From NCBI GenBank assembly GCA_031459535.1, contig JAVKIJ010000046.1, positions 1-24,748 of the forward strand: a stretch of 24,748 bases of DNA, given 5' to 3'. A program made the translations under genes and the position numbers. How positions within the stretch are numbered: position 1 is the first letter of the stretch; every line of letters starts with the position of its first letter. Origin of the DNA: Candidatus Fervidifonticultor quintus. GTDB lineage: Bacteria > Sysuimicrobiota > Sysuimicrobiia > Sysuimicrobiales > Humicultoraceae. Shown here in pieces: positions 8,515 to 22,548 of the stretch. The notes beneath the pieces were generated by a model that was given only the letters and a program-made list of their open reading frames with translations, ran no database searches and was not told where the DNA came from.

Positions 8515-8591
<77 letters not shown>

Positions 8592-8656: not shown

Positions 8657-9259
8657 TCACCGCCACCTGGCCAGGGTCGGGTCGTGCGCCAGCATCCAGG
8701 CCTCATTGGTGCGCCACGGGGAGAGGACCTCGGAGCGCACGCGAACGGCCTTGTCGGTCCACTGCACCCCGTCGCGCGCCACTGGTTTGCCGTCGGCCCG
8801 GTAGTACCACTTGACGTCCTGAATCAGGAACCAGAGATAGTGCAGGTACGACGACGCCACGACCTCGGTCACATCCATCATACCAGCGTCGAAGAATCCC
8901 ACCGGCGATTCGCCCAAGCCGTCTCGGCGGTCGAGCAGCAGCACGTAGGGGTTTCCGCACCCGTCGCTGCCGACCTCGACGTACGCGTCCTTCCAGCCCA
9001 GCGCGCCCCACAGCGCCCGCGCCTGCCGCGTCGAGTACAGAAGATTGAGCGCGGTCTGGATGGGCGGCACACCCAGCACGGGCTCGTGGACAATGAACCC
9101 GCCGTTGAACGCCGCCAGGACCTGGAGCATCGACGGTGGAAATCGGACGCCCAGCTCGGTCTGAGTCCGGGCGACCTGGTGTGGGATCGCCGGCTCGTTC
9201 AGGCGTACCACGCCCGGGGCGAAGTACGCCAGCTCTCGCCGGATGTCGTGCAGCGTCAC
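8657..9259 (-). CDS. SMI1/KNR4 (SUKH) family protein
   Basis: Pattern NEPA...TQTELGVRFPPS...FNGG and GSDGCGNPYVL. GTGA overlap with the purR stop. Confidence 0.8.
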   Translation of the reverse strand: MTLHDIRRELAYFAPGVVRLNEPAIPHQVARTQTELGVRFPPSMLQVLAAFNGGFIVHEPVLGVPPIQTALNLLYSTRQARALWGALGWKDAYVEVGSDGCGNPYVLLLDRRDGLGESPVGFFDAGMMDVTEVVASSYLHYLWFLIQDVKWYYRADGKPVARDGVQWTDKAVRVRSEVLSPWRTNEAWMLAHDPTLARWR

Positions 9260-10128
9260 GGAGCGTCGCCGGCCTGCCCGAGCTCTAGGCCGGCCGCCAG
9301 GGCGTCGATCCAGCGGCTCGGGCTCACCCGAGGCTCGCCGTCCACCACGCCGTGGTAGGTGATCAGCGCCAGATACCGGTCCAGCATCTTGTCTGCAGGG
9401 TGCTCCGTCTCAATCAATACCCCAACACCGACCACTTGAGCCCCGAACTCCCGCATCAAGTCATATACCCCACGGGCCGTCCCGCCACCGCGCAGAAAGT
9501 CGTCGATGAACAGGGCGCGGGCCCCCCGCGGCATGACACGAAGGGGCAGGGTCATGGACTGCACCATTCTGGACGATCCGGACACGTAGTTCACGCTGAC
9601 CGACGGGCCATCGGTCACCTTCCCGCCACGCCGGATGGTGACCAGCGGGACGTTGAACGCCCGCGCGGTCATGAACGCCAGCGGGATCCCCTTGACCTCC
9701 ATGGTCAGGATCACGTCGGGCCGGGCCTGCCAGAACAGCGTGGCGAAGGCTTCGCCGATCTCCTCCGTCAGCGAAGGCGTGGAGACGATGTCAGCGGTGT
9801 AGAGGAACCCGCCGGGAAGCACGCGCCCCGGATCGCGCAGCCGGGCGCACAGATCCTCGACCAGGCGCACGATCTGCTCGCGGGACCGCAGCGGCCGGAA
9901 GCGCACGCCGCCGCCTGCGCCCGGGACCGTCTCGATGCGACCGATGCCGAACCGGTCGCAGACCGCCCGTAGCAGGGCCAGGTCTTCGCTCACCGTGGAC
10001 TTGGCGGCCCCTGTCGCTTCGGCGAAACTGGACAGGGAGTGCAGCTGGTTGGGCGCGCGCATCAGGCGGCGCGCCAGGAGCACCATCCGGTCTCCCCGCC
10101 GCAGCCGACCGCCCTCGCGCGTCGCCAT
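9256..10128 (-). CDS. purR: Pur operon repressor, Bacillus-type (wHTH + PRTase domain)
   Basis: AAKSTVSEDL, ETVPGAGGGVRF, RVLPGGFLY, SVNYVSGSS and PRPP loop IDDFLRGGGT. ATG at 10128 has a GGAGGGGG SD. Confidence 0.92.
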   Translation of the reverse strand: MATREGGRLRRGDRMVLLARRLMRAPNQLHSLSSFAEATGAAKSTVSEDLALLRAVCDRFGIGRIETVPGAGGGVRFRPLRSREQIVRLVEDLCARLRDPGRVLPGGFLYTADIVSTPSLTEEIGEAFATLFWQARPDVILTMEVKGIPLAFMTARAFNVPLVTIRRGGKVTDGPSVSVNYVSGSSRMVQSMTLPLRVMPRGARALFIDDFLRGGGTARGVYDLMREFGAQVVGVGVLIETEHPADKMLDRYLALITYHGVVDGEPRVSPSRWIDALAAGLELGQAGDAP

Positions 10129-10154
10129 CTGTCCCCCTCCGCGCCGCGGGCGGC

Positions 10155-10913
10155 CTATCGGCTCTCCGACCCCGCCAGGGCGGCCTGCAGCACCGCCAGG
10201 TTCTCCGGCCGCTGCGTGTCCACGTCGAGGGCGAGCTCCGGGCTGGACACGATGACGGCCCGGGCGCGAATGCCGGTGATGTCGTACGCCCGCGCCTCCA
10301 GCTCGGCGATGGACAGACGGCCAGAGGCGAATTTCATGACGACGGCCCACCCGAACATCTGCGCCAGCACCCAGGGCTTCTTCCGCGCGGCCAGGATCTG
10401 CTCGACGAACGGTCGGACGCGGCCGATGACATCAGCCGCAAACAGCAGGACGCTGCCGCCGGTAAACGTGCCGTCTGTGACCCGAACGTAGGTCTTGCGC
10501 GCGCCAGGATAGCGCTGCTCGATGACCGCCTGCGGCACCACCGGGTAGTAGAAGTCGGCGCCAGTCTGGCAGCGCCCGAGGAAGTCGTCCAGCACCCTCC
10601 CCGTCAGCAGGGGCAGGTCGGAGGCCACGGCCAGGACCTGGCCGGTCGCCCCCACCTTCCTTATCGCGGCCTCGACGTTGTGCATCATCGAACCCTGCTC
10701 GGGCACGACCTCGACGCCGGGCCCCACGAGCGCCAAGAGCGGTTCGGCCGGCCCCACCACGACGATCCGGTCCACGGCCGCGCATGCCCGCAGGGCCGCC
10801 AGCACATGGACGAGGAGCGGCCGGCCCCCCAGCGTCAAGAACGCTTTGTTGGGCAGACCGGGTGCCAGGCGGGGTTCAGGCTCCCCGCCGGCCATGACGA
10901 TGGCAGCGGGCAC
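10155..10913 (-). CDS. MobA-like nucleotidyltransferase domain protein, function unknown
   Basis: AIVMAGG...NKAFLTLGGRPLL, ASDLPLL and ALDVD. GTG start overlaps the ispE stop. Confidence 0.8.
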   Translation of the reverse strand: MPAAIVMAGGEPEPRLAPGLPNKAFLTLGGRPLLVHVLAALRACAAVDRIVVVGPAEPLLALVGPGVEVVPEQGSMMHNVEAAIRKVGATGQVLAVASDLPLLTGRVLDDFLGRCQTGADFYYPVVPQAVIEQRYPGARKTYVRVTDGTFTGGSVLLFAADVIGRVRPFVEQILAARKKPWVLAQMFGWAVVMKFASGRLSIAELEARAYDITGIRARAVIVSSPELALDVDTQRPENLAVLQAALAGSESR

Positions 10914-11910: not shown

Positions 11911-13251
11911 GTGGCTCACGAAGAACGGCCCGCCGCGCCGGAGACGATTCCATCATCGGCAGCGCCGGAGCCCCCCCAGTCCACGATGCTCGCCCCGCTT
12001 CCACCTCCGCGCCCGCGCCGCCGGTGGTGGAGGTACGTGGCGCGGGCCATCCCCCTGCTCGTCGCGACCGTGGGAGGCCTGGCGCTCGGGGGCTACATCT
12101 ACCTGCTGGCCCAGGTGGCGGTCGGCCCGGCCGATGTGGCCCGCCGGCCGCAGGCCCGGTTGTTCGCGTGGCCCTTCCGCCTGGTCGATCGCGTGAACGT
12201 GCTGGTCATCGGTGTGGACGTGACCCTCGATGGCAGGCGACGGGTCCTCAACGTGAGCCGCGCCGACTCCCTGATCCTCGTCAGCGTGGACCCCAAGCGC
12301 CGGCGCATCGCCGCCCTGGCCATTCCGCGCGACACACGGGCCTTCATCCCGGGCATCGGCGAGACCAAGATCAACGCGTCGTACGCCTACGGCGGCCCGC
12401 GGCTGACCATCCGCACGGTAGAGCACCTGCTGGCGGTCAAGGTGCACTACTACGTCAAGCTCGGGCCGCAGTCATTCGCGCAGCTCATCGATGCCATCGG
12501 CGGGCTGGACGTCGATGTCGAGAAGGACATGAGGTACACCGACTCCTGGGCCGGGTATTCGATCAACCTCAAGAAGGGGCGCCATCACCTCAACGGCGAC
12601 CAGGTCACCGGGTACATTCGCTTCCGTCACGACGAGATGGGGGACATCGGCCGGGTGGAGCGGCAGCGGAAGGTGATGAACACCCTGGTGCGGCGGCTCC
12701 GGCAGCCCGAGACGATTCTCCATGCGCCAAGCCTGCTGCGCGCCTTCGCGCGGAACACCCAGACCGATCTCGGGGCCGTTGAGTTGATGACGCTGGGCCT
12801 GTTCGCGCTCCGCGCGAAGGATGCGCCGCTGCTGGAGTACACTCTGCCGGGCGGCTTCGCGCCCATGTACTGGGAGCCAGACTTCGGGCGGATCCGGCCG
12901 CTGGTCGCCGATCTGTTCTACGGCCTGTCGGCGGCCGAGCTCGCCGACACCCTGGTGGAGGTCCGCAGCCCACCTGGTCAGGCCGCGCTGGCCTGGCAGG
13001 CCGCGGCTCGCCTCCAGGAAGTGGGCTTCCATAACGTGAAGGTCAGCACGCAGCCTGCTGCCGCCGAGGTCACGACGGTTGTTGCCCGGATGCCGGAGGC
13101 TGGAGCTGCCCGGCTGGCCGCCGCGGCGCTCGGGCGCGCCGTGCTCAGGCACGACCTGGGCGCTGCTGGCGCGCCGATCACAGTGATCGCGGTGCGACAA
13201 CCCATAGATAGAGCTCAGGGGACCCTGCCGCGACGCAACGGCTCGCAGTAA
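11911..13251 (+). CDS. LytR-CpsA-Psr (LCP) family cell-wall glycopolymer transferase, possibly with a LytR_C-like C-terminal domain
   Basis: N-terminal TM helix; VNVLVIGVD, RADSLIL, IPRDT, KINASYAYGG and RFRHDEMGDIGRVERQ. Confidence 0.92.
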   Translation: MAHEERPAAPETIPSSAAPEPPQSTMLAPLPPPRPRRRWWRYVARAIPLLVATVGGLALGGYIYLLAQVAVGPADVARRPQARLFAWPFRLVDRVNVLVIGVDVTLDGRRRVLNVSRADSLILVSVDPKRRRIAALAIPRDTRAFIPGIGETKINASYAYGGPRLTIRTVEHLLAVKVHYYVKLGPQSFAQLIDAIGGLDVDVEKDMRYTDSWAGYSINLKKGRHHLNGDQVTGYIRFRHDEMGDIGRVERQRKVMNTLVRRLRQPETILHAPSLLRAFARNTQTDLGAVELMTLGLFALRAKDAPLLEYTLPGGFAPMYWEPDFGRIRPLVADLFYGLSAAELADTLVEVRSPPGQAALAWQAAARLQEVGFHNVKVSTQPAAAEVTTVVARMPEAGAARLAAAALGRAVLRHDLGAAGAPITVIAVRQPIDRAQGTLPRRNGSQ

Positions 13252-13254
13252 ACG

Positions 13255-13342
13255 CGTCAGCGGCCGCCTCCCGCGGAGTTAGGCCGGGTTGCTCCCCAGG
13301 GAGTACCTCACTCCCATCTCGCGCGGCTGCGCACCGCTGACG
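13255..13342 (-). ncRNA. Candidate structured small RNA (unassigned family)
   Basis: Long closing stem CGUCAGCGG/CCGCUGACG, inner stem CCGCG/CGCGG, and hairpins GGGAGU-GAGGU-ACUCCC and UGGG-GAGCAA-CCCG. A promoter lies directly upstream. Confidence 0.55.
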
Positions 13343-13347
13343 GTCGA

Positions 13348-13376
13348 ACTCTAACACCCGCCCACACCGTCGTCAA
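13348..13376 (-). promoter_or_regulatory. sigma70-type promoter for the candidate sRNA
   Basis: TTGACG (13376-13371, overlapping the aminotransferase stop), 17-nt spacer ending TGT (extended -10), TAGAGT (13353-13348). Predicted TSS ~13341-13342. Confidence 0.6.
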
Positions 13377-14623
13377 TCCGAAACGGTCGTTCCCCCTCTG
13401 TGGATGGTGTGGATAGCCGGGGCCATGCGGCGCACCAGCCGCGCCAGCCTCCCGATGCCCTCGCGGATCTCCTCCTCGGACGGATAGGAGAAATTCAGGC
13501 GCATGGTGTTGCGGCCGCTCCCGTCGCAGTGAAACGCCTGGCCGGGGACATAGGCAACGCCCTCTTCCTGCACTGCAGCCCGCAGCATGGCGCCGGCATC
13601 CATGTCTTCAGGCAGACGCACCCAGAGGAACAGGCCGCCTTCAGGTCGCGTCCACGACACGCCGGGAGGCATCTGGCTAGCGAGGGCCTCGAGCATCGCC
13701 TCGCGCTTCCGGCGGTACAGCGCCGCCACCGCGGGCAGACGCTGCGCGACCGTGCCGCGCGCCAGCAGTGCCGCGGCGATGGCTTGCGTGAACGAGGGTC
13801 CGCACAGATCCATGCCCTGTTTGGCCGTCACGCACCGCTCGATGATGGGCGCAGGCGCGGCGATCCAGCCGATGCGCAGGCCGGGGGCCAGTGTCTTGCT
13901 GAACGTGGACAGATAGAGGGTGCGCCGGTCGCGGTCGAGGGCGGCCACCGGCGGCGGGGCCTGGCCCATGAAGCGCATCTCGCGGTACGGGTTGTCTTCG
14001 ACGACCAGCACGTTGAACTCGGCCGCCAGGTCGAGCAGCCGCTCGCGGCGCTGGCGGCTCCAGGTGATCCCCGAGGGGTTCTGGAAATCGGGGACCACGT
14101 AGATGAACTTGAGTCGCCGCCCGGCGCGCCGCAGGTCGCGCAGCACCCCCGCCAGCCGATCGGGCTCGAGGCCCTCGTCGTCCTGGGGAACCCCAACCAT
14201 CTCGATCTGGTAGTAGCGAAACGCTTGGAGGCCACCCAGGTAGGACGGTAGCTCGCAGACGATGACGTCACCCGGGTCCAGCAGCACGCGGCCGACGATG
14301 TCCAGCGCCTGCTGCGATCCGTTGGTGATGAGGATCTGGTCCCGCTCGAAGGTGATGCCGTCCTTGGCCATCCACTTGACCAGCTCCTCGCGGAGCCTCG
14401 CGTCGCCTTCGGTGGTCCCGTACTGCAGAGCGCGGCCTGCCCCGGTGCGAAGGACCTCGTGGATCACCTCCTGGAGTTCGCCGACCGGAAAGGTCGCGGG
14501 ATCTGGGAGACCACCGGCAAACGAGATGACCTTCCCGCCGGCGGCAAACTTGAGCAACTCGCGGATGACGGACCGTTCGGCTCCCCGTGCGGGCGTTGAG
14601 AAGAACGCGTCGAACTCAATCAT
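13373..14623 (-). CDS. PLP-dependent class I/II aminotransferase (LysN/2-aminoadipate or aromatic transaminase-like)
   Basis: ISFAGGLPDP, LQYGTTEG, ITNGSQQAL, PDFQNPSG, EDNPY and PLP-lysine motif STFSKTLAPGLRIGW. Confidence 0.9.
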   Translation of the reverse strand: MIEFDAFFSTPARGAERSVIRELLKFAAGGKVISFAGGLPDPATFPVGELQEVIHEVLRTGAGRALQYGTTEGDARLREELVKWMAKDGITFERDQILITNGSQQALDIVGRVLLDPGDVIVCELPSYLGGLQAFRYYQIEMVGVPQDDEGLEPDRLAGVLRDLRRAGRRLKFIYVVPDFQNPSGITWSRQRRERLLDLAAEFNVLVVEDNPYREMRFMGQAPPPVAALDRDRRTLYLSTFSKTLAPGLRIGWIAAPAPIIERCVTAKQGMDLCGPSFTQAIAAALLARGTVAQRLPAVAALYRRKREAMLEALASQMPPGVSWTRPEGGLFLWVRLPEDMDAGAMLRAAVQEEGVAYVPGQAFHCDGSGRNTMRLNFSYPSEEEIREGIGRLARLVRRMAPAIHTIHRGGTTVSD

Positions 14624-16755: not shown

Positions 16756-18141
16756 CTACGGCGCCTGGTCCACGAGCTCGACGAGCGCCCCGTGGGTGTC
16801 TCTGGGGTGGACGAACACGATCCGGGTTCCGCGCGATCCCCTCCGGGGCTCTCGGTCGACCAGCGTGTAGCCGGCGTCGCGGACTCGCTCCATGGCCTGC
16901 ACCACGTCGGGCACCGCCAGCGCGATGTGGTGGATGCCCTCGCCGCGGCGTTCGACGAACCGTGCGACGGGACCGTCGGCCGCGGCCGGCTCGAGGAGCT
17001 CGATGCGGATCTCTCCCAGCGCGACGAAGGCTGCGACCACGCCGTCGTCGGGCAGCAGCTCCGCGTCACTCACCACCAGGCCCAGAGCGTCCCGGTAGAA
17101 GCGCCCCGCGTCGTCGAGATCGCGGACCGCAATGCCAATGTGGTCGAGGCGCACCCCCGGTGCGGCTGGCACCGGCGCACGCGCCGGCTGCGGCCCCGAG
17201 GCGGGTGCCAGTAGCAGGCCGGCCGCCGAGTGGGGATCGAGGCTCCCCCCGGCCACCCGCTCGACGAGCTCTTCCAGCCGGGCTCCAGACGCCCAGGCCG
17301 CCACCTGCTCCCGCACCCTGGCTTCGGCCGCCCGCAGGATCTCGCGCCGGCGGCGGTCGCGCCGGCGGCGCTCCAGCTCACCGGTGGATTCCTGATACCG
17401 GCGGTGGTCGGCCACGGCGGCCAGCACGTCGTTGACGCCTTCGCCCGTGGTGGCCACGGTGGCCAGCACCGGAGGTCGCCAGCGGTGCTCCTGGATCGAG
17501 CCCAGGGTCATCCGGAGATCCGCCACCGTCCGATCTGCGTCCGGCCGGTCGGCCTTGTTCACGACGAAGACATCTCCGATCTCCATGACGCCCGCCTTGA
17601 GTGTCTGGACCCCGTCGCCCAGCCCCGACGCGGTGACCACGACCACCGTGTCCGCGGCCGCCACCACGTCCACCTCGGCCTGGCCCGTACCGACCGTCTC
17701 GATCAGGACGGTGGACGCACCCCACCCGTCCAGGACCGCCACCGCCTCCGCAGCGGCTGGTGCGAGCCCCCCGAGGCTGCCACGGGTGGCCATCGAGCGC
17801 ACGAACACCTCGGGATCGGTACTGTGGTCCTGCATGCGGACCCGGTCGCCGAGCAGCGCGCCGCCGCTGAACGGGCTGGTGGGGTCGACGGCGATGACGC
17901 CGACCCGTTGCCCCTGCGCCCGCAGGGCCCGGATGGCCGCGTTCACCAGCGTGCTCTTGCCGCAGCCGGGTGGGCCGGTAATCCCGACCACGTACGCGCG
18001 CCCGGTGTGGGGCACGATCGCCTGGAGCACTTCCGCGGCGCGCGCGCCGTCGTTCTCGAGCAGGGAGATCAGGCGCGCCGCTGCCGCCGCAGAGCCACTC
18101 AGCAGCGCGGCGACGAGTTGCCGGATGGTCTGGTCGGTCAT
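16756..18141 (-). CDS. meaB: Fusion of MeaB/ArgK (MMAA) GTPase metallochaperone and methylmalonyl-CoA epimerase
   Basis: MeaB part: GITGPPGCGKST, AVDPTSPFSGGALLGDRVRM, RSMATRG, ETVGTGQ and NKAD. An Ala/Pro linker follows, then a VOC domain: LDHIGIAV, IELLEP, GEGIHHIAL, FVHPRDTHGALVELV. ATG at 18141 has a GGAG SD. Confidence 0.9.
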   Translation of the reverse strand: MTDQTIRQLVAALLSGSAAAAARLISLLENDGARAAEVLQAIVPHTGRAYVVGITGPPGCGKSTLVNAAIRALRAQGQRVGVIAVDPTSPFSGGALLGDRVRMQDHSTDPEVFVRSMATRGSLGGLAPAAAEAVAVLDGWGASTVLIETVGTGQAEVDVVAAADTVVVVTASGLGDGVQTLKAGVMEIGDVFVVNKADRPDADRTVADLRMTLGSIQEHRWRPPVLATVATTGEGVNDVLAAVADHRRYQESTGELERRRRDRRRREILRAAEARVREQVAAWASGARLEELVERVAGGSLDPHSAAGLLLAPASGPQPARAPVPAAPGVRLDHIGIAVRDLDDAGRFYRDALGLVVSDAELLPDDGVVAAFVALGEIRIELLEPAAADGPVARFVERRGEGIHHIALAVPDVVQAMERVRDAGYTLVDREPRRGSRGTRIVFVHPRDTHGALVELVDQAP

Positions 18142-18176
18142 GTCCGCTCCCATGCTAGGGTCGAGGCCGGACGGCT

Positions 18177-18962
18177 TCAAGCGCCGATCTCGGCGGCGAG
18201 CCGGTCATAGGCGGCCGGGGAGAGGACGCCACCCGGACCCACCAGATCTGCTAGCACCCCGCTGCGACGCAGTCGTTCCAGGGCCCGACCAATCGCCAGC
18301 TTGCTTCCCACGCCCGGCCGCAGCGCCGGGCGAAACGCGTCGTGCAGCAGGGCCGCGGCACGCCGCGCGGCATCGGCGCCGCCGGGGCCGCGCGCCTCGA
18401 ATTCGACCTCGTAGTGCCGGACGTCCACGCCCGGCAGATGGTAGACGACCGCGTCCACCGCCATCTCCGCCGCGGTCGCCCCGGGGTCACCGGACTCCAC
18501 GAGATGACGCACTGCCCTCTGGCATTCGCGATCCTGGACCACGGCGAGGCCCACCGCCCGGACGCTTGCCCGCGGATCGCCGGCTCCGGGCAGATGGGAG
18601 AAGCGGAGCCCTCCGAGACCCCTGGCGTCCAGCTCCGCGGCCACCTCCGGCGCTCCCTCGGGCCACGGCCGTTCGATCTCCAACCGCCGCACGCCGGCGC
18701 CCGGGAGGCGCTCCTCGTCGCCCTTGAGTGCGACCCACAGCTCCCCACCCACCGAGCGGATGCGCAGCGTCACGTGCGCCGCCCGAAGCGCTTCCTCGGG
18801 CGTGTCGAAGTAGAGGTCTCGGAGAAGCAGCAGGGGGCCCGGCTGCAGCCGGTAGGGGCCGAGACGCGCCAGCGAGACGACAGCCAGGCTCGTGGCCTCG
18901 GGATCGGCGGCCGCGATGGTCAGGCTGAACTCCGTCTCGAGATCGGCGGCCGGAGGGGCCAC
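18177..18962 (-). CDS. CYTH domain (triphosphate tunnel metalloenzyme) protein
   Basis: ETEF (ExE), DLYFDT, TLRIR, ALKG, RLEIE, YEVEFE and SK near the C-terminus. Confidence 0.8.
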   Translation of the reverse strand: MAPPAADLETEFSLTIAAADPEATSLAVVSLARLGPYRLQPGPLLLLRDLYFDTPEEALRAAHVTLRIRSVGGELWVALKGDEERLPGAGVRRLEIERPWPEGAPEVAAELDARGLGGLRFSHLPGAGDPRASVRAVGLAVVQDRECQRAVRHLVESGDPGATAAEMAVDAVVYHLPGVDVRHYEVEFEARGPGGADAARRAAALLHDAFRPALRPGVGSKLAIGRALERLRRSGVLADLVGPGGVLSPAAYDRLAAEIGA

Positions 18963-18965
18963 TGA

Positions 18966-20558
18966 CTATACCACCACCGGCGCGCGGTAGGTGCCGAAGA
19001 CCCCCCGCAGCACGTCGCAGATCTCGCCCACGCTGGCGTATGCGCGCACGGCGTCGAGGATGGGCGGCATGAGGTCATCTGAACCGCGGGCCGCCTCGGC
19101 CAGATGCGCCAGCGCCCGGTCCACCGCGGTGGCGTCGCGCTCGGCCCGCACGCGCTGGAGCCGCGCGATCTGCCGGACCGCGACCTCCTCGTCGAGCCGG
19201 TGCAACGCCATCCTGCCAGGCGCCTCGCTGCAGAACCGGTTGACCCCCACGACGACCCGGTCCCCGCGCTCGATGGCCTGGGCCTCGCGGTAGGCGCTCT
19301 CGGCGATCTCCCGCTGCACCCACCCACGCTCGATGGCCTGCAGCATGCCACCGGTGGCCTCAATCTGGGAGATGAGGGCCTCGGCGCGCTGCTCGATCTC
19401 GTCGGTCAGGTACTCGACGAAGTACGATCCGGCCAGCGGGTCCACGGTGGAGGTGACCCCGGTCTCGTACGCGATGATCTGCTGGGTGCGCAGCGCTAGC
19501 AGCGCCGAGTCCTCGGTGGGCAGCGCCAGCGCCTCGTCCCGCGCGTTGGTGTGGAGCGACTGGGTCCCGCCCAGCACCGCCGCCAGCGCCTGGAGGGTGA
19601 CGCGCACGACGTTGTTGTCGGGCTGCTGGGCGGTGAGCGCCGCGCCCGCGGTCTGGGTGTGAAACCGCAGCATCATCGACCTGGGGTTGGCGGGCCGGTA
19701 GCGGCCGCGCACGAGCCGGGCCCACAGCCGCCGCGCCGCACGGAACTTGGCCGCCTCCTCGAGGACGGCCATCTGCGCCGCGAAGAAGAACGACATGGTC
19801 GGAGCCACCTGATCCACCGCCAGTCCCGCGGCCACGGCGTGGTCCAGATAGGTCAGGCCGTTGGCCAGGGCGAACGCCACCTCCTGGACGGCGGTGGAAC
19901 CGGCCTCTCGGATGTGGTAGCCGCTGACGCTGATGGGGTGCCACCGCGGCAGGTGCCGTGCGCAGAACCGGAACATGTCGGCCACCAGCCGCATCGACAC
20001 CCGGGGCGGATAAATGTACGTCCCCCGGGCGATGTACTCCTTGAGGATGTCGTTCTGGGTCGTCCCGTCCAGGCGCTCTAGGGGCACGCCCTGCTTCTCG
20101 GCCACCGCCACGTACATCGCCAGCAGGATCGGCGCGGTGGCGTTGATCGTCATCGACGTCGACACGCGATCCAGCGGAATGCCGCTCAGCAGGATCTCCA
20201 CATCGGCCAGGGTGTCCACGGCCACGCCGACGCGACCGATCTCGGGCCGTGCCAGCGGGTGATCCGAGTCATAGCCCATCTGCGTCGGGAGGTCGAAGGC
20301 GATGGACAGCCCGGTCTGGCCCTGCTCGAGCAGATACCGGTAGCGCCGGTTGGACTCTTCTGCGCCCCCGAACCCGGCGTACTGCCGCATGGTCCACAGC
20401 CGGCCGCGGTACATGGTGGCATGGATGCCGCGCGTGAATGGATACTCGCCGGGCGCGCCGAGAGTCTCGAGGTAGCCTGGCCGTACATGAGACGGTCCGG
20501 CGCAGACCGGGAGGGGGATCCCATCGGCTGTAGCGACGCTGGGGGGACGCTCACTCAT
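18966..20558 (-). CDS. Methylmalonyl-CoA mutase, substrate-binding (N-terminal TIM barrel) subunit of a split enzyme
   Basis: [18 protein letters not shown] (Tyr89 equivalent), [13 protein letters not shown] (Arg207 equivalent), SGYHIREAG and GGTQSLHTN. The protein ends without a DxHxxG B12-binding domain. Confidence 0.93.
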
Positions 20559-21073
20559 CTCTGGGGGTCTTCGGCTTCGACCACGACCAGAACCTGCCCG
20601 CCGGCGACCTCCTGACCCGGGCGGGCCCTGACCTCTCGTATCCTTCCCGCGGCCGGGGAGGGCACCTCCATCTGCATCTTCATCGCCTCGACCACGGCCA
20701 CCGGGGCACCGGCCTGCACGGAGGCGCCTTCGATGAGGGGCAACGCCACCACGAGTCCGGGCATCGGCGCCCGCACTTCCACCCGCTCGGTCGCGGCAGG
20801 CCTCGCAGCCCCGCGGGAGGGGATCGGCAGCGCCCGGCGCAGACCCAGACGCGCCCGCCCCGCACCGATGACCACCAGCACGCCGCCGTCTTCAGGGTGC
20901 AGCCTCACCGGCACGGCCCGTCCCTCCAGGTGCAGGCGCCAGCACTCCGACCCCGCGGCGGGCTGGAGGCGGACGAGGGTCACTGTGTCGTCGGTCCGCA
21001 CGGCAAGCTGGTCGCCTGAGGGCTCCACATCCACCACGAGGCGGCGGGCCGGAGTGGTAACCTCGAGCCTCAC
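20555..21073 (-). CDS. Biotin carboxyl carrier protein (BT-like region + biotinyl domain)
   Basis: VRAPMPGLV and EAMKM biotinylation motif. GTG at 21073 overlaps the biotin carboxylase stop (GTGA). The ORF-track start at 21544 is an overlap artefact. Confidence 0.9.
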
Positions 21074-22548
21074 CGCAGGCTCTCCGCGCGGGCCTCGGCG
21101 GTCCACCGGGGCGCCGCACCGTCGGTTGGCAGCGCCGCACTGCTCGCGCGGCGATAGAACCACGCCGCCGCGGCCAGGATGGCCAGGCGCTCGATGTCCT
21201 GGGTGAGCGGCACCGACTCCCATGCCTCGGCAAAGCGCGCGTCGTAGATGCCGGCGCGAAATGCCGGCTGGTCCAGCGCCCACAGGTGGAAGGGAATGGT
21301 AGTATCCACGCCTGAGATGGCATACTCCTCCAGCGCCCGGCGCATCCGCGCAATGGCTGCCTCCCGCGTGGGTGCCGCCGCGATCACCTTGGCCAGGAGG
21401 GGATCGTAGTGGCGCGAGACGACCTGCCCGGGCCACAGGCCGCTGTCGACCCTGATGCCGGCGCCCGCCGGCTCCACGACGCCGTCCACGCGGCCAACGC
21501 ACGGCAGGAATCCCCGGTGCGGATCTTCGGCGCTGATCCGGCACTCGATGGCGACGCCGGTGTGGCGCACATCCTCCTGGCGAACCGGCAAAGGCTCGCC
21601 TGCGGCAATCTGGAGCTGCGCGGCCACGAGGTCGACGCCTGTCACCATTTCCGTGACCGGATGCTCCACCTGGATCCGCGCATTGACCTCGATGAAGAAG
21701 AACGCCTCGCCGTCCAACAGGAACTCCATGGTTCCGGCGTTGCGATATCCCAGCGCCTGCGCCACGCGGACCGCGGCGGCCGCCAGATCGTCACGGAGCC
21801 CGGGCGCAAGCCCTGGAGCCGGTGCCTCCTCGACGAGCTTCTGGTGACGGCGCTGTACCGAGCAGGCCCGCTCCCCCAGATGGACCACCTGCCCGAACCG
21901 GTCGGCCAGGATCTGGACTTCGACGTGCCGCGGCCGTTCGAGCCAGCGTTCGAGGTAGACCCGCGGGTCGCCGAACGCGGCCTGCGCCTCCCCGCGGGCG
22001 AGCCGCAGTGCCGCGGGCAACTCGTCGTAGCCGCGGACGAGATGAATCCCCTTGCCGCCACCGCCGCCCGCAGCCTTGATCAGGAGGGGAAACCCGATGG
22101 CCCGGGCTTCGCGCATCGCGCCTGCGTCATCAATGGGGCCGGTTCCCGCCAGCACGGGCACGCCCACGGACGCCGCCGCCGCCCGGGCGACGGCCTTGTC
22201 GCCGCAACGCTCCAGCACCGCAGCCGGCGGGCCGACGAAGGTGATGCCCGCCGCCTCGCACAGTGCGGCAAGCCGCGGGTTCTCGGCCAGGAATCCATAG
22301 CCGGGATGCAGCGCCTCCGCGCCCGACCGCCGCGCGAGCTGCACCAGCAGCGGGGCGTTCAGGTAGCTGTCGGCCGGCGCGTCACCGGGCAGCGGCAGGG
22401 CCTCATCGGCCAGGCGCACGTGCGGCGCGTCGGCGTCAATGGGCGCGTACACCGCGATCGGCGAGATCCCCAGGTCTCGAGCAGCGCGGGTGATGCGGAG
22501 CGCGATCTCGCCGCGGTTGGCAATCAACAGGCGACGAGGCAGTGGCAT
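21070..22548 (-). CDS. Biotin carboxylase subunit of acyl(propionyl)-CoA carboxylase
   Basis: LIANRGEIA, HPGYGFLAEN, KAAGGGGGKG, CSVQRRHQK, EVNARIQVEHPVTE, ECRISAED and YDPLLAK. Confidence 0.93.
   Translation of the reverse strand: MPLPRRLLIANRGEIALRITRAARDLGISPIAVYAPIDADAPHVRLADEALPLPGDAPADSYLNAPLLVQLARRSGAEALHPGYGFLAENPRLAALCEAAGITFVGPPAAVLERCGDKAVARAAAASVGVPVLAGTGPIDDAGAMREARAIGFPLLIKAAGGGGGKGIHLVRGYDELPAALRLARGEAQAAFGDPRVYLERWLERPRHVEVQILADRFGQVVHLGERACSVQRRHQKLVEEAPAPGLAPGLRDDLAAAAVRVAQALGYRNAGTMEFLLDGEAFFFIEVNARIQVEHPVTEMVTGVDLVAAQLQIAAGEPLPVRQEDVRHTGVAIECRISAEDPHRGFLPCVGRVDGVVEPAGAGIRVDSGLWPGQVVSRHYDPLLAKVIAAAPTREAAIARMRRALEEYAISGVDTTIPFHLWALDQPAFRAGIYDARFAEAWESVPLTQDIERLAILAAAAWFYRRASSAALPTDGAAPRWTAEARAESLR

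What the first reader, a model, noticed from the sequence alone, without database searches (positions are those of the whole stretch)
13255..13376. Stand-alone ~88-nt structured RNA with its own promoter, between two convergent genes
Seen: TTGACG-17-(TGT)TAGAGT on the minus strand predicts +1 at the base of a long closing stem (13342-13334 pairing with 13263-13255). The stem continues through CGC/GCG, CCGCG/CGCGG and GAG/CUC into a junction with two hairpins (loops GAGGU and GAGCAA). The next gene downstream is on the opposite strand, so this cannot be a riboswitch leader. It is also more elaborate than a terminator. I cannot match it to tRNA, SRP, 6S or common ribozyme cores. Inference: an unannotated trans-acting ncRNA; an Hfq-like gene is present in the window.
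Basis: partly seen in the sequence, partly recalled or inferred. Interest (0 to 1): 0.7.

Follow-up and report, generated by a model that had tools for sequence, protein, structure and literature searches.

The report
Phylum-wide small hairpin RNA gene
This is a real, separately transcribed gene for a roughly 90-base hairpin-shaped RNA of unknown function that nearly every genome of one uncultured bacterial phylum carries and that matches no described RNA family.

Summary
The promoter, the 9-bp closing stem and the convergent flanking genes are as described. No Rfam family matches.

Relatives correct the fold. It is one long irregular hairpin, not a junction with two hairpins. On 63 sequences 93.8% of cells pair and 24 of 31 pairs show compensatory changes.

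A covariance model finds the RNA in 84 of 94 genomes of the phylum, CSP1-3/Sysuimicrobiota by record titles. It lies in at least five different gene contexts. Most copies have their own promoter and a U-rich tail. SRP RNA, 6S, tmRNA and RNase P RNA lie elsewhere. No Hfq gene was found.

A second orphan RNA of about 190 nt shares a promoter module found only at these two genes. In one genus it sits directly in front of this RNA. The module holds DnaA-box-like repeats and a GAAC-N4-GTTY palindrome.

Best reading: a stand-alone structured RNA whose invariant purine-rich internal loop is a binding platform. Transcription and the partner are not shown.

The parts
13250..13344 (-). The RNA gene (RNA-A). 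The predicted transcript runs from about 13344-13341 to about 13250 and is about 92-95 nt. It folds into one irregular hairpin.
   Evidence: The 5' end is inferred from the -10 box ending 5-7 nt before the closing stem in 55 of 63 family members. The 3' end is inferred from the U-rich run after the stem. The covariance model R1 matches window 13242-13348 (-) at 97.4 bits. Neither end was measured.
13334..13342 (-). 5' strand of closing stem P1 (CGUCAGCGG).
   Evidence: It pairs with 13255-13263. In the 63-sequence alignment, 8 of the 9 P1 pairs show compensatory changes, for example UA>CG in 28 sequences and AU>GC in 17.
13255..13263 (-). 3' strand of closing stem P1 (CCGCUGACG), followed by CGUUUA. 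The stem plus U-run is terminator-like.
   Evidence: 57 of 63 family members have at least 4 U in the 9 nt after P1, and 48 of 63 have at least 3 in a row. The window's own copy has only UUU. The generic terminator scan lists nothing here because the 'loop' is the whole rod.
13276..13320 (-). Invariant core: GAG-R-UGGG-AG(n)-G-A-GGU-A ... CAACC-C-GG-CCUA-A-CUC, including the apical hairpin CUCC-CUGG-GGAG (13303-13292).
   Evidence: Fourteen core positions are identical in 63 of 63 sequences. They include the unpaired A, G, A, GG and A and a G.U wobble. The helix UGGG/CCUA is proven by compensatory changes: GC>AU in 6 sequences, UA>CG in 2 and GC>AU in 1.
13348..13356 (-). Extended -10 box TGT-TAGAGT.
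   Evidence: Found by the promoter scan. TANNNT lies at a fixed distance in 55 of 63 members, 45 of them with the TG extension. The spacer sequence varies while the boxes are kept.
13371..13376 (-). -35 box TTGACG. It contains the TGA stop codon of the aminotransferase ORF.
   Evidence: TTGACG is the -35 in 31 of the 55 promoters scored.
13381..13392 (-). Palindrome-like GAAC-GACC-GTTT just upstream of the -35. It is operator-like and resembles the SOS-box core.
   Evidence: GAAC-N4-GTT[CTG] occurs upstream of RNA-A in 32 of 35 family-f1 loci and 8 of 10 f2 loci, where it is a perfect GGAAC-N4-GTTCC. The genome's own lexA and recA boxes read CGAAC-N4-GTT[CT]G. The binding protein was not tested.
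13399..13416 (-). Two head-to-tail 9-mers, CTATCCACA and CCATCCACA, that are DnaA-box-like. They lie inside the last codons of the aminotransferase ORF.
   Evidence: Read from the sequence. Boxes with at most 1 mismatch to TTATCCACA lie upstream of RNA-A in 17 of 35 f1, 5 of 10 f2 and 2 of 6 f4 loci, and upstream of RNA-B in 18 of 24 loci. The genome background is 119 such boxes in 2 x 3.1 Mb. The only other cluster lies upstream of dnaA. The consensus box is recalled, and binding was not tested.
13373..14623 (-). Upstream neighbour on the same strand: class I/II aminotransferase ORF. Its C-terminal tail overlaps the RNA gene's promoter module.
   Evidence: Pfam PF00155, E 2e-43. The same gene lies upstream in 30 of 42 distinct loci, all of family f1 type.
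11911..13251 (+). Convergent neighbour: LytR-CpsA-Psr (LCP) family ORF. Its stop codon lies 3 nt from the base of the RNA's closing stem.
   Evidence: Pfam PF03816, E 6e-44. It is present downstream in 29 of 42 distinct loci.

Best explanation
The element is the gene for a previously undescribed small structured RNA, called RNA-A here. It is about 90 nt long (about 136 nt in one family) and is conserved across the uncultured phylum CSP1-3/Sysuimicrobiota. It has its own sigma-70-type promoter with an extended -10 box. It folds into a single long irregular hairpin, and its GC-rich closing stem followed by a U-rich run probably also ends transcription.

Shown: the conservation, the rod fold with covariation, the promoter conserved with a variable spacer, and independence from any particular neighbouring gene.

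Inferred: the RNA acts as a free molecule through its invariant core. That core is a purine-rich internal loop (A, G / G, G) with a bulged A, an R.A mismatch and an invariant G.U wobble, set between helices that do covary. This pattern is typical of a docking site for a protein or another macromolecule, as in SRP RNA domain IV or 6S RNA. It is not typical of a base-pairing seed.

Also inferred: in three of the five families with more than one genome searched, RNA-A is co-regulated with a second orphan RNA, RNA-B (about 190 nt). The two share a promoter module of DnaA-box-like repeats plus a GAAC-N4-GTTY palindrome, which hints at control by replication or DNA-damage status. My confidence that this is a genuine independent ncRNA gene is about 0.9. 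My confidence that it works as a binding platform is about 0.4. The confidence figure given is for the whole statement.
For: Distribution. blastn finds the element in 24 of 24 other genomes of the same family, with similarity starting at the base of the stem. Model R1 finds it in 84 of 94 genomes of the phylum and in 52 of 54 high-quality ones. An exact core pattern scanned over one genome per species of 185,579 species gave 38 loci. All the records are MAGs. The titles that name a taxon name Sysuimicrobiota genera, 'Armatimonadota/Armatimonadetes bacterium' or, in one case, Candidatus Nitrosymbiomonas; the rest say only 'bacterium'.

Structure. On the MAFFT alignment of 42 sequences, 91.7% of cells pair against 30-44% when partners are slid. 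On the model-fitted alignment of 63 sequences, 93.8% of cells pair, 24 of 31 pairs have changes on both sides, and 208 cells do. Slid controls give 6-12 pairs and 22-42 cells, and 0 of 500 shuffles reach the observed values. Six distant members fold into the same rod on their own.

Own transcription unit. -35 and -10 boxes at fixed spacing with a variable spacer occur in 55 of 63 sequences. Seven more have TTGACC-17/18-TGGTACAAA-type boxes. A U-rich tail follows in 57 of 63.

Context. The neighbours differ by family: aminotransferase/LCP, Pyr_redox_2/ispG, nadE, AlaDH/M20 peptidase, ctaA-ctaB. In the loci printed, the same-strand downstream genes ispG and nadE have their own -10-like box after the RNA's tail.

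Not a known RNA. There is no Rfam hit. The large SRP RNA, 6S, tmRNA and RNase P RNA lie elsewhere in the genome.

Core. Fourteen positions are invariant in 63 of 63 sequences, including unpaired purines and a G.U pair.

Link to RNA-B. The composite promoter module occurs at exactly these two genes in the 3.1-Mb genome. RNA-B is itself a conserved structured RNA, with 13 of 43 pairs compensatory, present in 74 of 94 genomes. In all 5 genomes of genus g29 that have RNA-A, it lies directly 3' of RNA-B with no promoter of its own.
Against: No transcript was seen. The one RNA library available is held as contigs. It shows only a relative's contig running across 13000-13398, which says nothing about ends or strand.

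No partner protein is identified. None of the gene neighbourhoods holds an RNA-binding protein.

The window's own copy has only three U after the stem.

In families f5 and f2 a same-strand gene starts within roughly 30-130 nt of the RNA, so some leader function there is not excluded.

RNA-B was not found in any of 12 f5 genomes, 11 of which have RNA-A. The f5 promoters also lack the shared module. The coupling is therefore not universal.

The DnaA-box and SOS-box readings rest on recalled consensus motifs. The palindrome's flanks (GGAAC...GTTCC or GTTTC) differ from this genome's lexA and recA boxes.

Alignment A5 was fitted to the model's structure, which leans its counts towards that structure.
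Confidence: 0.55

Rival explanations
1. It is a base-pairing, chaperone-dependent trans-acting sRNA that regulates mRNAs. The SD-like GGAGGAGGU or the CUCC/CCC words would serve as the seed.
For: It has its own promoter and a terminator-like 3' end. The 5' core reads like a strong ribosome-binding site of this genome, and GGAGGAGG-type words occur before start codons.
Against: The RNA is 92-94% paired with no conserved single-stranded stretch. No Hfq gene was found in the window or the genome. The 14-nt invariant 3' core has no complement elsewhere in the genome with 0 mismatches and only one with 1 mismatch. The 5' core has none with 0 mismatches. The apical CUCC hairpin is replaced in families f2 and f4. 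Invariance of unpaired purines next to covarying helices fits shape recognition better than a seed.
Confidence: 0.13
2. It is a cis-regulatory leader, riboswitch-like, for the gene downstream on the same strand: ispG in family f5 and nadE in family f2. The stand-alone copies would be relics.
For: In f5 the RNA lies between a divergent Pyr_redox_2 gene and ispG. In 4 of 6 long-form f2 loci examined it lies in front of nadE, 12-69 nt from the longest ORF start. The closing stem plus U-run could act as a regulated terminator.
Against: The downstream genes are unrelated between families. In f1 and f4 the next gene is on the opposite strand. In the f5 and f2 loci printed, a separate -10-like box lies between the RNA's tail and ispG or nadE. 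The closing stem is always complementary, and no alternative anti-terminator pairing is conserved. In genus g29 the RNA follows another RNA. No riboswitch family matches.
Confidence: 0.07
3. It is only a bidirectional terminator or 3'-UTR structure shared by the two convergent genes.
For: It sits 3 nt after the LCP stop codon and about 30 nt after the aminotransferase stop codon. It is a stable GC-rich hairpin on both strands.
Against: Terminators are not conserved in sequence across a phylum, and they do not move with their own promoter into five unrelated contexts. The model scores the minus strand at 97 bits against 26 bits for the plus strand. The core is invariant while the stems covary.
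Confidence: 0.03
4. It is a very divergent member of a known RNA class that the Rfam models miss, such as a Y-RNA-like or SRP-like RNA or a second 6S-type RNA.
For: The rod shape with conserved internal loops and a stable tetraloop is the design of SRP RNA domain IV and 6S RNA. The AGCA-like and GGU words near the apex recall SRP RNA (recalled, not tested beyond Rfam).
Against: No hit at E<=10 to any of 4227 families. The genome already has SRP RNA at 178 bits, 6S at 69.5 bits, tmRNA at 148 bits and RNase P RNA at 258 bits. At about 90 nt, without a central bubble, it is too small for 6S.
Confidence: 0.04
5. It is a dispersed repeat or mobile-element remnant (REP or MITE-like).
For: It is a long inverted repeat in an intergenic region.
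Against: It has one copy in its own genome and 1-4 per genome elsewhere. Synteny is conserved within families. None of 80 viral-contig loci that match a loose core pattern matches the model.
Confidence: 0.01

Closest known systems
Bacterial SRP RNA (4.5S / domain IV; Rfam RF00169, RF01854)
   Same: It is a stand-alone gene whose RNA is one long hairpin. Conserved asymmetric and symmetric internal loops near a stable tetraloop form a protein docking site, and the distal stems covary.
   Different: No model match. The genome's real SRP RNA is a 266-nt large-type RNA on another contig. The loop sequences differ, and the apical tetraloop is variable and dispensable here.
6S RNA (RF00013) and other polymerase-binding rods
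   Same: It is a rod-shaped, independently transcribed, near-universal housekeeping-type RNA.
   Different: It is half the size, has no central open-promoter-like bubble, and gives no model match. 6S is present elsewhere.
Phylum-restricted orphan structured RNAs found by comparative genomics (for example the Chloroflexi-1, Acido-1 and Dictyoglomi-1 type motifs; names recalled)
   Same: It is a conserved sequence and structure limited to one phylum, in intergenic DNA, with unknown function and evidence mainly from covariation.
   Different: None of those families matches. This one also has a clearly conserved promoter and a partner RNA with the same promoter module.
Paired regulatory RNAs that share a dedicated upstream element (RsmY/RsmZ or CsrB/CsrC with their GacA/UvrY box; recalled)
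   Same: Two different ncRNA genes are the only places in the genome that carry one composite upstream module.
   Different: There are no repeated GGA hairpins, and family f4 has no GGA in the core. The module looks like DnaA boxes plus an SOS-like palindrome, not a Gac box. In one genus the two RNAs are fused into one unit.
Intrinsic (Rho-independent) terminator
   Same: It has a GC-rich stem directly followed by a U-rich run, between convergent genes.
   Different: The 'loop' is a 70-nt conserved structured domain. The element carries its own promoter and is conserved in sequence across a phylum.

Membership tests
Bacterial SRP RNA (RF00169 / RF01854) | Match to the family covariance model (domain IV loops and GNAR tetraloop) | tested here: not met
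   No SRP hit at E<=10 in 13100-13500. The SRP RNA of this genome is at G000:C53, 178 bits.
6S RNA (RF00013) | Match to the family model: a rod of about 180 nt with a central bubble | tested here: not met
   No hit in the region. 6S is at G000:C24:32688-32868, 69.5 bits. This RNA is about 90 nt without a large bubble.
tRNA / tmRNA / RNase P RNA | Match to the family models | tested here: not met
   The only tRNA in the window is at 8518-8591. tmRNA and RNase P RNA lie on other contigs.
Hfq-dependent base-pairing sRNA | An Hfq gene in the organism | tested here: not met
   The Pfam Hfq model's best hit in the genome is 15 bits, below the 27-bit cut-off, inside a 479-aa frame on another contig. 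The genome is 89% complete.
Hfq-dependent base-pairing sRNA | A conserved single-stranded seed region | tested here: not met
   92-94% of cells in the rod are paired. The invariant unpaired bases are 1-3 nt bulges and loops.
Hfq-dependent base-pairing sRNA | A terminator hairpin with a U tail | tested here: inconclusive
   57 of 63 sequences have a U-rich tail after P1. The window's copy has UUU only.
Riboswitch / cis-regulatory leader | Consistent position upstream of functionally related genes on the same strand | tested here: not met
   The next gene is convergent in f1 and f4. It is ispG in f5 and nadE in f2, each with its own -10-like box in the loci printed.
Riboswitch / cis-regulatory leader | Ligand binding or alternative terminator / anti-terminator folds | not testable with these tools
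   No conserved alternative pairing was seen. Ligand binding needs in-line probing.
Intrinsic terminator | A short GC-rich hairpin (loop 3-8 nt) followed by a T-run | tested here: not met
   The terminator scan finds 0 sites in 12800-13800. Only the base of the rod plus the U-run resembles one.
Dispersed repeat (REP / MITE) | Many copies per genome | tested here: not met
   One copy in the genome; the other matches are 14-46 nt chance hits.
11-nt GAAA-tetraloop receptor (CCUAAG / UAUGG; recalled motif) | The receptor register, with a U.A reverse-Hoogsteen pair and an A-A platform, which needs the A of UAUGG | tested here: not met
   The core reads CCUAAC / GRUGG. However, covariation supports the plain helical register (column 36 with 108, GC>AU in 6 sequences). 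The required A is G in 34 of 63 sequences.
DnaA-regulated promoter | DnaA boxes (TTATCCACA, recalled consensus) near the promoter | tested here: met
   Two head-to-tail boxes with 1 and 2 mismatches lie at 13416-13399. Family f2 has perfect boxes. The only other box cluster in the genome is upstream of dnaA.
DnaA-regulated promoter | DnaA binding and an effect on transcription | not testable with these tools
   This needs EMSA or footprinting and a reporter assay.
LexA (SOS) regulon, Gram-positive-type box | A CGAAC-N4-GTTCG box as found at this genome's lexA and recA | tested here: inconclusive
   The GAAC-N4-GTT core is present in 32 of 35 f1 and 8 of 10 f2 loci. The flanking bases differ, and the site lies upstream of the -35 rather than inside the promoter.

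The most novel reading that the evidence does not exclude
RNA-A and RNA-B form a phylum-specific two-RNA module whose transcription is wired to the replication initiator DnaA and to an SOS-like operator. The pair would report or control replication or DNA-damage status. For example, the invariant purine loop of RNA-A could bind and titrate a conserved protein. It would be an RNA system with no described counterpart.
Probability: 0.2. Interest if true: 0.85.

Novelty: new member of a known kind. Interest (0 to 1): 0.62.

Why it matters
CSP1-3/Sysuimicrobiota is described in the two phylum papers' abstracts as a prevalent but uncultivated phylum of hot springs and deep soils. Searches of both papers' main text for six RNA-related terms gave no mention of non-coding RNA.

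An RNA kept in nearly every genome of a phylum, with a core as invariant as that of SRP RNA, is likely to do something central that gene-based annotation misses. The coupling to a second orphan RNA adds concrete, testable hypotheses, and so does the promoter that looks DnaA- and SOS-controlled. These are rare for orphan RNAs. The covariance models built here would let the RNA be annotated in metagenomes.

If the function turns out to be ordinary, the finding still adds two RNA families to the catalogue.

Tried and rejected
Divergent SRP RNA. I considered this because of AGCA/GGU-like words near the apex. It is rejected because the real SRP RNA is elsewhere.

6S, tmRNA and RNase P RNA. All lie elsewhere.

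RNA-B as the 6S RNA. Rejected: it has no Rfam hit, and 6S is on contig C24.

Homology between RNA-A and RNA-B. Model R1 finds nothing in 20 RNA-B loci except one 13-bit chance hit.

Direct pairing of RNA-A with RNA-B. duplexfold of the full GC-rich RNAs gave -91.6 kcal/mol against -79.4 +/- 5.5 for shuffles, with no defined site. This is uninformative.

Targets complementary to the invariant cores in the own genome. None is convincing.

GAAA-tetraloop receptor, K-turn and CsrA-sponge readings of the core. The first is rejected on register and on variation at one position. The K-turn fails because the tandem G.A consensus (recalled) is not met. The sponge fails because family f4 has no GGA.

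Small ORF 13178-13357 (-). It is not coding. One-nucleotide and roughly 35-nt insertions in relatives break any frame.

LexA assignment of the palindrome. Left open.

Expression. One RNA run, held as contigs, was laid. A relative's 478-nt contig spans 13000-13398, and another contig ends inside the core. It shows no ends, no strand and no level.

Viral contigs. Of the 80 listed, none matches R1.

A full-text search for the core words found only unrelated primers.

I did not scan the metagenome collection. I could not search genomes outside the phylum with the model. 'Restricted to the phylum' therefore rests on the exact-pattern scan, which would miss diverged cores.
Full report
**What is at the coordinates**

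On the minus strand the window reads TTGACG (13376-13371), a 17-nt spacer ending in TG, and TAGAGT (13353-13348). Five bases further on comes CGUCAGCGG (13342-13334). This is perfectly complementary to CCGCUGACG (13263-13255).

The promoter scan finds this one site in 12800-13800, against 0.2 expected. The 96-nt stretch folds to -52.9 kcal/mol. That is 3.3 standard deviations better than dinucleotide shuffles, and the plus strand folds almost as well.

The flanking ORFs converge. A LytR-CpsA-Psr family gene ends at 13251. A class I/II aminotransferase ends at 13373, and its TGA stop codon lies inside the -35 hexamer. Further along the minus strand lie ksgA/rsmA upstream and ispE downstream.

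Rfam 15 has nothing for the element, neither at gathering thresholds nor at E<=10. The element is single-copy in its 3.1-Mb genome.

**The fold**

Its MFE fold is a continuous rod. Relatives decide for the rod.

I collected homologues by blastn from related genomes. I added loci from an exact core pattern scanned over one genome per species of 185,579 species. I then used a covariance model, R1.

On a plain MAFFT alignment of 42 distinct sequences, the rod pairs in 91.7% of cells against 30-44% when the partners are slid. On 63 sequences aligned to the model, it pairs in 93.8% of cells. Of its 31 pairs, 24 have changes on both sides, in 208 cells. Slid controls give 6-12 pairs and 22-42 cells, and no shuffle of 500 reaches the observed values. 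That alignment is fitted to the structure, which favours it.

The second one pairs in only 61.9% of cells, and one of its pairs forms in 2 of 42 sequences.

The apex of the rod is CUCC-NNNN-GGAG with UUCG, GAAA, GCAA, GGAA or GCGA loops. In family f2 it is replaced by a stem about 35 nt longer, giving a 136-nt form. In family f4 it is GCUC-UUCG-GAGC. The apex is therefore structural, not the functional part.

Six distant members fold into the same rod when folded alone.

**The core**

Below the apex lies a block that hardly changes: GAG-R-UGGG-AG(n)-G-A-GGU-A on the 5' side and CAACC-C-GG-CCUA-A-CUC on the 3' side (window 13320-13276).

Fourteen positions are identical in all 63 sequences. They include the unpaired A and G, the bulged A, the opposing GG, an A facing R, and a G.U wobble.

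The helix UGGG/CCUA is nevertheless proven by compensation. Family f4 has UGAG/CUUA, and two other sequences have CGGA/UCUG and CGAG/CUUG.

Helices that covary around unpaired purines that never change are what one sees at protein or tertiary docking sites. I considered three named motifs from memory.
- **GAAA-tetraloop receptor.** The core reads CCUAAC/GRUGG, but covariation supports a plain helical register, and the critical A is G in 34 of 63 sequences.
- **K-turn.** There is no tandem G.A.
- **CsrA site.** Family f4 has no GGA.

None of the three fits.

**It is a gene of its own**

In the alignment that includes upstream DNA, the -35 and the extended -10 are conserved while the 17-18-nt spacer between them is free to vary.

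Of 63 distinct loci, 55 have TTGNNN-17/18-TANNNT ending 5-7 nt before the closing stem, and 45 of these carry the TG extension. Seven more, the long f2 form, have TTGACC-17/18-TGGTACAAA-type boxes. The last one follows another RNA, as described below.

After the closing stem, 57 of 63 loci have at least four U in nine bases. The window's own copy has only UUU.

The model scores the minus strand at 97 bits and the plus strand at 26 bits.

**Distribution**

R1 finds the RNA in 84 of 94 genomes of the phylum and in 52 of 54 high-quality ones. By family the counts are f1 31 of 33, f2 22 of 22, f4 18 of 23, f5 11 of 12, f7 1 of 1, and f3 and f6 0 of 1 each. That search used stricter filters, and f4 scores are low, so some misses may be false.

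Several genomes have two to four copies.

All 38 records hit by the exact-pattern scan are MAGs. Those whose titles name a taxon are Sysuimicrobiota genera, 'Armatimonadota/Armatimonadetes bacterium' or, in one case, Candidatus Nitrosymbiomonas; the others are labelled only 'bacterium'. Twenty-two of them are identical to loci already fetched.

The tallies include the two genomes flagged unpublished, G013 and G022. No claim depends on them.

I could not search other phyla with the model. Restriction to the phylum therefore rests on the exact pattern alone.

**Context**

In family f1 the RNA always lies between the aminotransferase on the same strand and the convergent LCP gene. This holds in 30 and 29 of 42 distinct loci respectively.

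Other contexts are as follows.
- **f5:** between a divergent Pyr_redox_2 gene and ispG.
- **f2, long form:** in front of nadE in 4 of 6 loci examined.
- **f4:** between a divergent alanine dehydrogenase gene and a convergent M20 peptidase gene.
- **Extra copies:** in two of the three such loci annotated (L074, L086), after a ctaA-ctaB fusion gene.

I assigned family labels to some loci from the pattern scan by likeness, not by a tool.

In the f5 and f2 loci whose flanks I printed, a separate -10-like box lies between the RNA's tail and the start of ispG or nadE. It reads TGNTATNCT in the f5 loci and is TATAAT-like in the f2 loci.

No neighbourhood is shared across families, and none holds an obvious RNA-binding protein. 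This argues for a free-standing RNA. It argues against a leader, a 3' UTR or a plain terminator.

**Not a known housekeeping RNA**

The genome has the following elsewhere.
- A large-type SRP RNA (178 bits).
- 6S RNA (69.5 bits).
- tmRNA (148 bits).
- RNase P RNA (258 bits).

The Pfam Hfq model finds no gene in the window or the genome (the genome is 89% complete).

The two papers on the phylum do not mention non-coding RNAs. I searched their main texts for six terms and did not read the supplements. The core words occur in no paper of the library except as unrelated primers.

**A partner RNA and a shared promoter module**

Upstream of the -35, conservation goes on. There are two head-to-tail 9-mers, CTATCCACA and CCATCCACA (13416-13399). 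Then comes GAAC-GACC-GTTT (13392-13381), and then GGATTGACG.

In the window these lie inside the last codons of the aminotransferase ORF. Yet they travel with the RNA to loci that have no aminotransferase.

In the whole genome the composite occurs at exactly one other place. That is the promoter of a second unannotated RNA, RNA-B, at G000:C115:12563-12752 on the minus strand.

RNA-B is a rod of about 190 nt (z -4.6). It has no Rfam match. Of its 43 predicted pairs, 13 are compensatory in 27 sequences. It is found in 74 of 94 genomes, with up to eight copies in family f4 and none in 12 f5 genomes. It is not homologous to RNA-A by the model.

In all five genomes of genus g29 that have RNA-A, RNA-A lies directly behind RNA-B. 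It has no promoter of its own, and the shared module sits in front of RNA-B. One f1 genome has a weak RNA-B-like copy 40 nt beyond RNA-A on the other strand.

The f5 genomes lack RNA-B, and their RNA-A promoters also lack the module.

**What the module looks like**

The 9-mers match the DnaA-box consensus TTATCCACA, which I recall rather than derive. The match is perfect in several f2 and f1 loci.

Boxes with at most one mismatch occur as follows.
- **Upstream of RNA-A:** 17 of 35 f1 loci, 5 of 10 f2, 2 of 6 f4 and 0 of 11 f5.
- **Upstream of RNA-B:** 18 of 24 loci.

The genome holds only 119 such boxes on both strands. Its only cluster of two or more within 60 bp lies upstream of the dnaA gene fragment on contig C9.

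The palindrome has the core of the Gram-positive SOS box. This genome's lexA and recA promoters carry CGAAC-N4-GTT[CT]G. The RNA promoters instead read GGAAC-N4-GTTCC or GTTTC, and the site lies upstream of the -35. I therefore leave the protein open.

Both readings are leads. They point to control by replication or DNA-damage status.

**Expression**

One metatranscriptome run held part of the stretch. It is stored as contigs. A relative's 478-nt contig crosses 13000-13398, and another contig ends in the core. This shows neither a start, an end nor a strand. Transcription of a discrete RNA is not shown.

**Verdict**

It is a near-universal RNA gene of a whole phylum, with a partner RNA. It is less than claimed in two respects: there is no junction and no Hfq.

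The most likely mechanism is a free, stably folded RNA that works through its invariant purine-rich loop as a binding platform. In most families it is expressed together with RNA-B from a specially regulated promoter. The steps from 'conserved structured RNA' to 'binding platform' and 'DnaA/SOS control' are inference.

Noticed in passing
G000:C115:12563-12752 (-), locus L093:770-955 (-); not in the window: A second orphan structured RNA (RNA-B, about 190 nt, rod-shaped, invariant GUAA loop). It has no Rfam match and 13 of 43 pairs compensatory. It is present in 74 of 94 genomes of the phylum, is multi-copy in family f4, and was not found in family f5. In f1 it lies between acpS and nnr (YjeF).
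   Followed up: partly
window 13373-13416 (-): The last 14 or so codons of the aminotransferase ORF, including its stop codon, are made of the RNA gene's promoter module (DnaA-like boxes, palindrome, -35). The protein tail is conserved with it. tblastn alignments reach residue 416 in 27 of 30 loci.
   Followed up: partly
G072-G076 (genus g29), e.g. L140:1316-1600: RNA-B and RNA-A form a tandem unit with about 10-20 nt between them and one promoter module in front.
   Followed up: yes
G017:C32:20201-20377 (-), L041:1776-1952 (-): A weak RNA-B-like copy (64.8 bits) lies convergent to RNA-A, 40 nt beyond RNA-A. It fills the extra gap before the LCP gene seen in this locus.
   Followed up: no
G000:C9:1550-1581: The only cluster of DnaA boxes in the genome (3 boxes with at most 1 mismatch within 32 bp). 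It lies about 1 kb upstream of the dnaA gene fragment at the contig end and is probably the dnaA promoter or the origin region.
   Followed up: no
G000:C18 about 2690-2703 (lexA), C21 about 2696 (recA), also C61, C65, C51, C112: Gram-positive-type SOS boxes CGAAC-N4-GTT[CT]G sit inside the lexA and recA promoters and at a few other genes.
   Followed up: no
G000:C37:1334-1683 and C52:45-391: There are two full-length tmRNA matches (148 and 134.7 bits) in one genome bin with 5% estimated contamination. This may be strain mixture or contamination.
   Followed up: no
window 8518-8591 (-): A tRNA gene with anticodon CAU (64.6 bits).
   Followed up: no
window 16759-21544 (-): A methylmalonyl-CoA mutase cluster: a MeaB GTPase fused to a glyoxalase-like (epimerase-type) domain, a CYTH-domain ORF, the mutase, and a biotin/lipoyl-domain protein. 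A PurR-type regulator lies at 9259-10350 (-).
   Followed up: no
L128, L129 (family f2): An ANTAR response-regulator gene lies 124-143 nt upstream of the long form of RNA-A on the same strand in 2 of the 6 long-form f2 loci annotated.
   Followed up: no
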